Part shown: piece by piece, positions 43,896 to 46,315 of the stretch
Position numbering within the stretch: the first letter of the stretch is position 1
Layout: each line of letters begins with the position of its first letter
Origin: Tubiluchus corallicola
Lineage: Eukaryota; Animalia; Priapulida
Length of the DNA: 64,000 nucleotides
Direction: 5' to 3'
NCBI GenBank assembly: GCA_030141605.1
Contig: JAQGDQ010000050.1
Coordinates: 259,971-323,970, forward strand
Made by a program: the position numbers and the translations under genes
The notes under the pieces: model-generated
Told to the model about the DNA's origin: nothing
Database searches by the model: none
What the model saw: the letters and a program-made list of their open reading frames with translations, nothing else

Positions 43896-43952
43896 CTAGA
43901 CCATACTGAACTGCATCATTATAACGACGTACGTGAAGTAAAGACTAGCAAT
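43896..43952 (-). CDS. Gustatory receptor-like (Grl/7TMIC) gene, exon 4 (last)
   Basis: Acceptor cttttccggtttcag|, translation IASLYFTYVVIMMQFSMV*, containing the TM7 signature TYhhhhhQF. Confidence 0.93.
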   Translation of the reverse strand: MASLYFTYVVIMMQFSMV

Positions 43953-44355
43953 CTGAAACCGGAAAAGATACACCATTAACATTCAAATTAGAAATGTTTA
44001 TTGTAGAGCCAACTGATAACAGTTTCCTGAGAAACGTATATATAAACCAATAGGATAAAATAACATTGAGAAAACCACGAAAAACAGCTTTCAGTTTTTG
44101 AAGGGAGAACGTACCTTACCTATCGCGAGGGGTAAACCATCTAGTGAGCATTCGCAGATAAATGGGCGGGGCATCAATCATGTTCTTTTGTCAATTGAAA
44201 TGATGTCATGACTCATTTATTCAAGAACTTCAATTTAATAAATTATTAGGCAAATAAAATCATTAAAAATAGGTCTGTATCTACTTGTGATATCTTTAAA
44301 ATATAGTTGGGATATCATTTGCTGACACATTGTGCTTATGCAATTATGAACTTAC

Positions 44356-44445
44356 CGTAAGAATCACATCCTTTGTTATGATAATTATACCCCAATAAGA
44401 GAAGCCAATTTTGTCACTGGTGAGTTTCGACAACAACAAGTGTAA
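44356..44445 (-). CDS. Grl gene, exon 3 (90 bp, phase 0-0)
   Basis: ttacttttacag|LHLLLSKLTSDKIGFSYWGIIIITKDVILT|gtaagt; typical GF-x-x-x-G-h-h-h-I pre-TM7 segment. Confidence 0.93.
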
Positions 44446-44550
44446 CTGTAAAAGTAAAGATAATTATTGTTACTACAGCGTAACAATCAGGACGTATTGC
44501 GCATCTTGGCAAAACGTGAATGCATGGGTATTGATATGGGTTTATAATAC

Positions 44551-44661
44551 CTGTAACGTAATTTCATTCAGACCATCCTGTGGATGAATGCAGTCCTTTG
44601 TATCGTCATCGCTATTTCTGTAGATTTCCAAGTCATACATAGACGGTAGCGCTGCTTTTCC
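44551..44661 (-). CDS. Grl gene, exon 2 (111 bp, phase 0-0)
   Basis: ttttctcag|GKAALPSMYDLEIYRNSDDDTKDCIHPQDGLNEITLQ|gtatta; open frame linking exons 1 and 3. Confidence 0.88.
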
Positions 44662-44786
44662 CTGAGAAAAATATTGCAGCTACAAAACAAGGACGCAGTG
44701 AAGAGGACTTTACATGAAATTCTTGCACGATTTGTATTATCTAACCAATTTCAATGGTCTGCTTCAAAATATTGTAATCAGTGTAT

Positions 44787-45083
44787 TCTCTCTCTCTCTC
44801 TCTCTTTCTCTCTCTCTCTCTCTCTCTCTCTCTCTCTCTCTCTCTCTCTCTCTCTCTCTCTCCTCTTCTCTCTCTCTCTCTCTCTCTCTCTCTCTCTCCC
44901 CTCTCTCTCTCTCTCTCTCTCTCTACTCTCTCATCTCACTCACTCTCTCTTTTGCTCTCTCTCTCTGTCTCTCTCTCTCTCCCCCTCTCTCTCCCTCTCC
45001 TTTCTTCATCTCTCTCTTTCTCTCTTTCTCTCTTTCTCTCTCTCTCTCTCTCTCTCTCTCTCTCTCTCTCTCTCTCTCTCTCT
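44787..45083. repeat. (CT)n microsatellite of about 300 bp in Grl intron 1
   Basis: Directly visible. Confidence 0.97.
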
Positions 45084-45343
45084 GGGTTTGAATTTTTTAT
45101 GGGTGCCTTTACATTTCTATGTTGAAATCGTAATGTGTTTTATAAGCTTGCATTTTGTATGTTCGTGAATGATTCGATAATAAATTTCTCTCAAATTTCT
45201 ATTATACATTATCCTTATCTGTTATACTACAACTGAAACTAATTCATAACTAGTGCATGTTTTGAACGGTTACTTTTTGACATCTTTTACGTTTCATCAT
45301 AATTTTTTGGCATAAAATATACATGCATTCTTAAAGAACTCAC

Positions 45344-46315
45344 TTCTTCATGTAGTGTCGCAGCATACACGGAGATCAGGAATAATATTGCCAAAGTGAC
45401 CATCGACCAAAATCCATTTATAATCATTACGACCACATTAGCATTTGCATCTTGGGTCATTTTTATCAACTCGTAAGTATGCACGCCAGCATTTAGCAAG
45501 GTCATCGTGTAATAGAAGAAAATTATTTTCCTAAAATCCTGATCTGCTATTTTCACCATCTTTGTCGCCAACTGATGCCTACGTCGCAATTTTTCCATTT
45601 GAACTGCAAGTTGGTATATTGAGGTATTTCTATCTGACGCCAAACGTGATATTGAATCGTTTATTGCTTTATACTCGGTACGAAAAATTTCACAAACTCC
45701 AGCAAAAAGTGGTACTGGCAGAAGCCACCCAAAACACGCGAAAGTTGTCAGACACAGAAACACTAGTTTAGTGTGTAACTTTGGCTCAAATGGCAGTGCA
45801 ATAATAGCAAACTGCTCATGGCTTTCCTTGACTAGTCCAAAAGTATTGAAAAACAGCAAGCCAGAATTGATAAGACAAACTGTGCAGGCAATGACGACTA
45901 AGACGCGGACATGGCGTACGATTCGATTAGTGTCAACCTTGTCAAATGTGATGTTATCGTTAAAATATTTGAACAGCAGATCGAAATGACCATAGTTGCT
46001 AAAAGTTATGTGAACGATCGCAGTATTGCAGAAGACAAGGAAATGCCAAATCTCCGTAACAGCAAACCATAGTGGGGAGAACAACGACGGTTTCAGTATA
46101 AAACCAATAAAAAAACGGGCAACTTCAAACGCTAGTAATAACAACACTGTTACTGAATACACTGAACTAACCATGTGCATCGTTCGTCGACGTTTCTTGT
46201 CTTTGTTTCTGATCATTGGACATAGACCTGTGACAAAAAGGCTTCTAAGAGAGGGCTTTAATAACTCATAAAGCTTATTTTCAGTTATATTTTCTGATGC
46301 TTGAACTTTATTCAT
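45344..46315 (-). CDS. Grl gene, exon 1 (324 codons, TM1-TM6)
   Basis: LKPSLRSLFVTGL N-terminal motif, six hydrophobic segments, LRRRHQLATKMVKIADQDF intracellular helix; ends AATLHEE|gtgagt (phase 0). The ORF-track tail VSSLRM... is intron read-through. Confidence 0.93.

What the first reader, a model, noticed from the sequence alone, without database searches (positions are those of the whole stretch)
43896..46315. Complete gustatory-receptor-like (7TMIC) gene with the three phase-0 introns and TYhhhhhQF, only partly shown in the ORF track
Seen: four minus-strand exons (46315-45344, 44661-44551, 44445-44356, 43952-43896) join by GT-AG, all in phase 0, into a 409-aa protein ending IASLYFTYVVIMMQFSMV. 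Known: the insect GR/OR superfamily and its non-arthropod Grl relatives are 7TM ion-channel subunits diagnosed by three C-terminal phase-0 introns and TYhhhhhQF; Grl ligands outside insects are largely unknown. Inference: this is an intact, probably uncharacterised chemosensory channel. Exon 2 carries an acidic stretch (RNSDDDTKDCIHPQDG) in the intracellular anchor region.
Basis: partly seen in the sequence, partly recalled or inferred. Interest (0 to 1): 0.8.

Follow-up and report, generated by a model that had tools for sequence, protein, structure and literature searches.

The report
Ordinary invertebrate taste-receptor-like channel gene
This is an intact four-exon invertebrate gene of the well-known family that includes insect taste and smell receptors; it likely makes a subunit of a chemical-gated ion channel whose trigger is unknown, and it is an ordinary new member of that family.

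Summary
Observation confirmed. Four minus-strand exons join by GT-AG, all phase 0, into a 409-aa protein ending in TYVVIMMQF. This splice model ranked 1 of 35,545 against a profile built only from homologues. Exon 1 folds (pLDDT 92.9) onto Orco, Gr64a, Gr43a and BmGr9 (Z 17-25; next unrelated chain 6.9). Its 46 relatives include mollusc, hemichordate and echinoderm proteins; 38 of 43 aligned relatives show the donor-derived Val at the intron-1 position. BmGr9's pore and gate residues are all kept in register. The one peculiarity is a 13-15-residue acidic insertion in the loop between helices S6 and S7a, which rests on exon 2, the least secure exon. Untested: transcription (no junction reads), tetramer, ligand, a sensory role, and the phylum. 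The scan earlier noted another Grl locus in this genome with alternative first exons (unreviewed; 'likely priapulid'); this locus has no second first exon in the window.

The parts
45344..46315 (-). Exon 1: Met1 to residue 324; helices S0 to S6 with the predicted ligand pocket and the long cytosolic S4-S5 helices
   Evidence: Open frame and GTGAGT donor; fold pLDDT 92.9; Z 17-25 to insect OR/GR chains. The start codon is inferred: good context, but two short out-of-frame upstream ATGs lie at 46343 and 46338.
44662..45343 (-). Intron 1, phase 0, 682 nt, holding a long GA microsatellite (about 44778-45095)
   Evidence: position shared with relatives (38 of 43 have Val next)
44551..44661 (-). Exon 2: residues 325-361; predicted end of S6, the S6-S7a loop and start of S7a; 37 aa against 22-24 in five full-length relatives
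   Evidence: least secure exon
44572..44619 (-). Acidic stretch, residues 339-354, covering the 13-15-residue insertion at the predicted cytosolic tip of the anchor domain
   Evidence: Alignment (exon 2 has 8 D/E and 3 K/R; relatives 2-5 D/E); position by profile alignment to Gr64a and Orco
44446..44550 (-). Intron 2, phase 0, 105 nt, just ahead of the S7a-coding exon
44356..44445 (-). Exon 3: residues 362-391; predicted S7a, the hairpin and the start of S7b, ending in T391
   Evidence: E 1.1e-8 to the homologue profile; a diverged contig matches across it and departs 8 nt into the upstream intron
43953..44355 (-). Intron 3, phase 0, 403 nt
   Evidence: the hemichordate model P0008 stops at this very column
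43896..43952 (-). Exon 4: residues 392-409 and stop; predicted pore helix S7b
   Evidence: contigs of run X1 match it from the acceptor on
43908..43934 (-). TM7 signature TYVVIMMQF (T398, Y399, I402, Q405, F406)
   Evidence: in register with BmGr9 436-TYLVILIQF-444 (PMC11100771, passages read)

Best explanation
This is an intact four-exon gustatory-receptor-like (Grl, Class-A 7TMIC) gene of an invertebrate, and its product likely assembles as a tetramer into a cation channel that would open when a small molecule binds. Shown: the exon structure, the open frame, the motif, homology, and the predicted fold of S0-S6. Inferred from insect structures: four subunits would join through the cytosolic anchor (S4-S6, S7a); the four S7b helices from exon 4 would line the pore, with I402 and F406 as hydrophobic gates, T391 and T398 as hydroxyl rings, and Q405 swinging into the pore on opening; a ligand in the S1-S6 pocket would move S5 (conserved Y281) and so S7b. 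The pocket keeps the S6 tryptophan (W303) with polar neighbours N300 and T307, so a water-soluble ligand is my guess, but it lacks the Gr43a-type Gln and His, so it is unlikely to be a fructose receptor of that type. The exon-2 insertion is most likely a tolerated loop extension. I put family membership at about 0.97, a working gene at about 0.85, ligand-gated channel activity at about 0.7 and a role in external chemosensation at about 0.5.
For: Splice model ranks 1 of 35,545. HMMER over 1.84 billion representatives gave 46 relatives at E<=1e-3, best 27% identity, E 8e-22; 29 of 46 match 7tm_7, Trehalose_recp or 7tm_6 at E<=0.01 and 22 of 46 pass a curated cut-off. Of 30 proteins looked up, 7 carry an organism name: 4 molluscs, 2 hemichordates, 1 echinoderm; a Littorina cluster member is named 'Gustatory receptor'. 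Atlas: best hits 0.95 to 7tm_7-bearing clusters, where 35-42% of members carry the family. Profiles A1 and A2 hit only insect GR/OR chains in the PDB (11 of 11 and 14 of 14 rows). The exon-1 model has pLDDT 92.9, pTM 0.89; all 19 listed rows among Foldseek ranks 1-20 are OR/GR chains, TM-score 0.58-0.73; VIA Z 24.9 (Orco, rmsd 3.0, 300 aligned), 24.4 (Gr64a), 20.4 (BmGr9), next unrelated 6.9, of 48,161 chains. The window keeps all seven internal near-invariant columns of the alignment (P175, P200, R244, H247, D258, Y281, W303). Gate residues match BmGr9 T429, T436, Y437, I440, Q443, F444 by register. In a diverged contig over exon 3, 3 of the 5 listed differences (of 14) are synonymous and 2 conservative.
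Against: Exon 1 has no 7tm_7 hit and its 7tm_6 hit is under the cut-off. S7 was never folded, because only exon 1 could be modelled. All 3 listed coding differences in same-locus contigs of run X1 change the residue (A6V at depth 4.3, A99V, S377F), and S377 lies in the conserved hairpin where the five relatives have F-T: a hint of relaxed selection, on very small numbers. The window departs from the family consensus at C277 (Gly here; Cys in 32 of 43) and has a long branch (1.39). By the S6 register it lacks the arginine of BmGr9's E200-R361 salt bridge (I310). [quoted passage not shown]
Confidence: 0.72

Rival explanations
1. It is a Grl channel with a non-chemosensory job: developmental patterning, light or peroxide sensing, or internal neuromodulation, as reported for Nematostella Grl1 and C. 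elegans LITE-1/GUR-3.
For: PMC7746228 introduction: the non-insect Grls with functional data act in light detection, egg-laying and body patterning. Nothing in the sequence ties this gene to a sensory cell.
Against: Low identity to all relatives (best 27%) and signs of several paralogues in the species fit a fast-turning receptor repertoire better than a conserved single-copy developmental gene (inference).
Confidence: 0.25
2. It is an obligate heteromer subunit or co-receptor that cannot form a channel alone and pairs with a paralogue.
For: Many insect GRs work combinatorially (PMC12635824, passages read). Contigs of run X1 show at least one paralogue with an almost identical exon 4 (2 differences in 50 nt).
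Against: The full TY..QF motif with the Gln is kept, as in the homomeric BmGr9 and MhOr5; many GRs and Orcos keep it as well, so this is weak.
Confidence: 0.3
3. It is a recently silenced or decaying copy: still intact in sequence but unexpressed or under relaxed selection.
For: 3 of 3 listed allelic coding differences are non-synonymous, one at a conserved hairpin site; long branch; two upstream ATGs close to the start.
Against: 1,227 nt of open frame, three canonical splice junctions, all near-invariant residues and the gate residues are kept.
Confidence: 0.1
4. Exon 2 is mis-predicted, so that the acidic insertion is not in the protein, or exon 2 has alternative acceptors.
For: In-frame acceptors at 44679 and 44577 have comparable pyrimidine tracts; the runner-up model is 3.4 bits lower; no contig covered exon 2.
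Confidence: 0.12
5. It is one isoform of a locus in which several TM1-6 first exons share these tail exons, as in Drosophila Gr28b/Gr39a and as noted by this scan elsewhere in the genome.
For: Earlier unreviewed notes describe such loci in this genome and in octopus.
Against: No second TM1-6 frame or remnant in the 64 kb: profile search of 2,825 ORFs and tblastn with 68 queries gave 67 matches inside the gene and 0 outside. There are 17.7 kb upstream in view.
Confidence: 0.05

Closest known systems
Non-arthropod animal Grls (Class-A 7TMIC): Saccostrea XP_062610018, Littorina XP_070201464, Ptychodera XP_070577621 and XP_070579163, Acanthaster XP_022090696; spionid GRLs of PMC11730519
   Same: Length near 410-460 aa, 22-25% identity overall and 33-46% over exons 3-4, the same conserved columns, the same intron-1 position, TM7 motif.
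   Different: Exon-2 segment is 37 aa against 22-24, with more acidic residues; no close relative is on hand (best 27%, unnamed P0001, sister at SH-aLRT 96 in a quick tree).
Drosophila Gr64a (PDB 8jme) and Gr43a (8jm9); Bombyx BmGr9 (8vc1)
   Same: Fold of S0-S6 (Z 24.4, 23.2, 20.4); motif and gate residues in register with BmGr9; the S6 tryptophan.
   Different: 10-13% identity; the Gr43a-type Q351 and H358 are N300 and T307 here by register; the S3-S4 loop is about 20 residues with a short helix, against 1 residue in BmGr9; longer S6-S7a loop.
Insect Orco (6c70, 8z9a) and MhOR5 (7lic)
   Same: Fold (Z 24.9 and 22.7); S5 tyrosine and S7b layout by profile alignment.
   Different: 11-16% identity; no long Orco-type intracellular loop 2; ends in QF as GRs do, where Orco has QL.

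Membership tests
Animal GR/Grl (Class-A 7TMIC) | TM7 motif (T/S)Yhhhhh(Q/K/E)(F/L/M) near the C-terminus (PMC7746228) | tested here: met
   TYVVIMMQF at residues 398-406
Animal GR/Grl (Class-A 7TMIC) | [quoted passage not shown] | tested here: met
   Phase-0 GT-AG introns after residues 324, 361, 391, best of 35,545 models. Intron 1 is shared with 38 of 43 relatives, and intron 3 coincides with the end of P0008. Not compared base by base with insect genes, and not confirmed by reads.
Animal GR/Grl (Class-A 7TMIC) | 7TMIC helix packing with long S4-S6 helices forming the anchor | tested here: met
   Exon-1 model (S0-S6), pLDDT 92.9; Z 17.4-24.9 to 8 of 8 OR/GR representatives, next 6.9
Animal GR/Grl (Class-A 7TMIC) | TM7 split into S7a (anchor) and S7b (pore) | tested here: inconclusive
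   Supported by sequence only: the tail matches the homologue profile at E 1e-18, and that profile aligns to S7 of Gr64a, Gr43a and Orco. Not modelled in 3D.
Pfam 7tm_7 (PF08395) | Score at or above the curated cut-off of 26.6 bits | tested here: inconclusive
   Exon 1, exon 2, exon 3 and exon 4 scanned apart: no 7tm_7 hit; exon 1 hits 7tm_6 at 19.3 bits, under its cut-off. The spliced protein was not scanned. 11 of 46 relatives pass the 7tm_7 cut-off.
Animal GR/Grl (Class-A 7TMIC) | Inverted topology (N-terminus inside) | not tested
   Follows from the fold match only
Insect GR/OR channels (what it works like) | Tetramer and ligand-gated cation current | not testable with these tools
   A 409-aa tetramer exceeds the complex tool's 1000-residue limit; needs electrophysiology
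Gr43a/BmGr9 fructose receptors | Pocket residues Q351, W354, H358 on S6 and the TPY motif on S5 | tested here: not met
   By register from the tryptophan: N300, W303, T307; S5 reads HTY. Sequence register, not a structural overlay.
Class-A GPCR (to exclude) | 7tm_1 match and rhodopsin fold | tested here: not met
   No 7tm_1 hit for exon 1; GPCR chains score Z 6.5 or less against 17-25 for OR/GR

The most novel reading that the evidence does not exclude
If the host is a priapulid, as an earlier unreviewed note on this genome suggests, this is part of an undescribed Grl repertoire in a phylum close to the base of the moulting animals, and its acidic 13-15-residue insertion at the anchor tip is a lineage-specific cytosolic control site (for calcium, pH or a partner protein) on a self-sufficient homomeric channel: a ready test case for whether Grls outside arthropods are ligand-gated chemoreceptors.
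Probability: 0.1. Interest if true: 0.45.

Novelty: new member of a known kind. Interest (0 to 1): 0.2.

Why it matters
Grls are known across protostomes, echinoderms, hemichordates, cnidarians and placozoans, with the same motif and introns (PMC7746228; PMC5850775; PMC11730519), so one more intact gene is expected. Its value is as a data point: a divergent member (27% to its best relative) with a fully intact insect-type gate, perhaps from a phylum whose Grls I did not find described (searches listed 3, 11 and 1 papers, none on the topic by title or start of abstract). Whether non-arthropod Grls are ligand-gated chemoreceptors is still open, but this gene makes that question no more testable than the many other orphan Grls do.

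Tried and rejected
No whole genome is held, so paralogue number, synteny and phylum could not be tested. RNA: no RNA holder listed. Run X2 (RNA only by guess) laid nothing at 85% or 80% likeness; run X1 gave contigs without joints and without cover of exon 2. None of this is evidence on expression. Word-index protein searches found nothing with exon 1 and 2 proteins with alignment A1. Single-sequence fold was poor (pLDDT 45.8) and was not used. The search for related loci could not use A1. Complex prediction, run on a relative (P0003, 2 copies) as a stand-in: no verdict, score 0.00; not evidence either way. The tree is the quick version, 41 rows (P0019, P0030, P0043 dropped as short; P0002, P0004, P0039 were never in A1), with 12 of 38 inner branches open: it gives no phylum or orthology. 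A search with the neighbouring GPCR gave only 25-27% hits and no taxonomic signal. The bacterial promoter scan does not apply to an animal gene and was at chance level. Saina et al. 2015 (PMC4374167) is not held; I cite it only through PMC7746228. Robertson 2003 and 2015 were not read. An array of alternative first exons was looked for and not found. The second motif-like match at 39339 has no profile or tblastn support. No supplements were read; repertoire tables in them might list close relatives.

Full report
Observation. The four minus-strand exons are present at the stated coordinates, each a multiple of three, with GT donors and CAG acceptors, and they join to a 409-residue frame with no internal stop. 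The introns follow residues 324, 361 and 391 and measure 682, 105 and 403 nt. The window is AT-rich (35% GC), microsatellite-rich animal DNA. Exon 3 was also found alone (E 1.1e-8 among 2,825 ORFs). Exon 4 alone was weak (E 0.47) and exon 2 alone was not listed. Exon 2 is the least secure: the next model is 3.4 bits lower but has poorer splice signals, and two other in-frame acceptors exist.

Identity. Pfam gives exon 1 only a sub-threshold 7tm_6 hit (19.3 bits against 25.8) and no 7tm_7 hit; the spliced protein was not scanned. Other lines agree clearly. A full HMMER scan found 46 relatives, best 27% identical; 29 of 46 match 7tm_7, Trehalose_recp or 7tm_6 at E<=0.01, 22 of 46 pass a curated cut-off, 16 match nothing, and one shows only Kelch families among the five rows listed. 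Of 30 proteins looked up (29 of the 46, plus P0050), 7 carry organism names: four molluscs, two hemichordates, one echinoderm. The language-model atlas puts exon 1 next to gustatory-receptor clusters at 0.95. Profiles of the relatives hit only insect GR and OR chains in the PDB. With a 44-row alignment exon 1 folds at pLDDT 92.9, and it matches Orco, Gr64a, OR28, OR10, Gr43a, MhOR5 and BmGr9 at Z 20-25 over about 290-300 residues, with the next unrelated chain at 6.9 (Foldseek agrees).

Introns. Most relatives in the library look like first exons read on into the intron by gene callers that ignore splicing (my inference from their short, unrelated tails). In 38 of 43 aligned relatives the residue right after the column of residue 324 is Val, and in 31 it is Val followed by Ser, Arg or Cys, which is what a phase-0 GTRAG donor gives. 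One of the 38 is a spliced NCBI model (P0003). So intron 1 sits at a shared position. The hemichordate model P0008 ends at the column of residue 391, where intron 3 lies. PMC9998090 (passages) describes three phase-0 introns, the second just before the TM7 exon, which is the layout here. I did not compare the positions with insect genes directly. Run X1 holds diverged contigs that match exon 3 (14 differences, departing 8 nt into the upstream intron) and exon 4 (2 differences in 50 nt, then a different six-residue tail and stop by my hand translation), which points to paralogues that share these exon edges. These are contigs without joints; they show nothing about transcription.

Mechanism. 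In BmGr9 the pore has hydrophobic gates at I440 and F444 and hydroxyl rings at T429 and T436, and Q443 turns into the pore on opening (PMC11100771, passages). Counting from the motif, the window protein has T391, T398, Y399, I402, Q405 and F406 at those places. The S5 tyrosine that couples pocket to pore likely corresponds to Y281, kept in 40 of 43 relatives. The best reading is therefore a tetrameric, ligand-gated cation channel of the insect GR type; assembly, gating and ligand are inferred, not shown. The pocket keeps W303 with N300 and T307 one turn away on either side, where BmGr9 has Q351, W354, H358; the S3-S4 loop is about 20 residues. That argues against a Gr43a-type fructose receptor and leaves a water-soluble ligand as a guess. 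Against a working gene: three of three listed allelic coding differences change the residue, one at a conserved hairpin position, on small numbers and low depth.

The acidic stretch. Exon 2 encodes 37 residues where five full-length relatives have 22-24, with 8 D/E against 2-5. Long third intracellular loops are known elsewhere in the superfamily (plant DUF3537; PMC7746228, passage). I have no evidence that it is more than a tolerated extension, and it depends on exon 2 being right.

Context. Earlier unreviewed notes of this scan describe a Grl locus with alternative first exons on another piece of this genome, called likely priapulid, and similar arrays in octopus. I tested this locus for that design and found no second TM1-6 exon or remnant in the 64 kb. 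I could not test the phylum. Neighbours are a cytochrome P450 3' end, two intronless class-A GPCRs and long unidentified plus-strand frames.

Comparison with what is known. GRLs are reported across protostomes, echinoderms, hemichordates, cnidarians and placozoans, with the TM7 motif and 3' introns as their marks (PMC7746228, introduction read whole and passages; PMC5850775, passages; bioRxiv 10.1101/2023.08.30.555482, passages; PMC11730519, passages). The few with known roles outside insects act in light sensing, egg-laying or development, and a 2025 review calls gustatory use apparently unique to arthropods (PMC12635824, passage). Searches for priapulid or scalidophoran gustatory receptors listed 3, 11 and 1 papers, none on the topic by title or start of abstract; I read only those listings.

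Verdict. The gene is a new, divergent but ordinary member of a known family. Interest 0.2.

Noticed in passing
window 820-1065 and 5057-5290 (+): Last two coding exons of a cytochrome P450 (Pfam p450 E 1.1e-17 and 1.6e-12).
   Followed up: partly
window 14589-15572 (+) and 30714-31709 (+): Two intronless rhodopsin-type GPCR frames (7tm_1 E 4e-18 and 7e-24); the second has only 25-27% relatives. Possibly lineage-specific chemoreceptor-type GPCRs near the Grl.
   Followed up: partly
window 22369-24747, 61499-62890, 63106-63513 (+): Long, low-complexity plus-strand frames with proline-rich motifs and no credible family hit. If they belong to one gene, the Grl and one GPCR would be nested in its intron; not tested.
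   Followed up: partly
window 43907-43956 and 44351-44453, run X1 contigs: Diverged contigs over exons 3 and 4 point to paralogues; one has a nearly identical exon 4 with a different short tail followed at once by AATAAA.
   Followed up: partly
proteins P0005-P0046: Most library relatives are unnamed and look like Grl first exons read into the phase-0 intron, so many animal Grls seem to sit unannotated in public assemblies.
   Followed up: partly
protein P0002 (Batillaria model, 1448 aa): A Kelch-repeat region and Grl-like stretches in one predicted protein; probably a merged gene model.
   Followed up: no
window 34668-34904 (+), 36170-36550 (-), 3652-4212 (+): Likely transposon remnants: a weak DDE_Tnp_4 hit for the first (E 7.5e-4); the other two have no Pfam hit and are judged by recalled resemblance only.
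   Followed up: no
window 21527-21763 (+): Weak RIX1 hit (E 1.1e-4, under the cut-off), possibly an exon or chance.
   Followed up: no
window about 1640-1950 (+): Minisatellite of roughly 22-nt units inside the last P450 intron, seen by eye.
   Followed up: no
window 46338-46343 (-): Two short out-of-frame upstream ATG frames just ahead of the Grl start; one ends on a TGA that overlaps the start codon.
   Followed up: no
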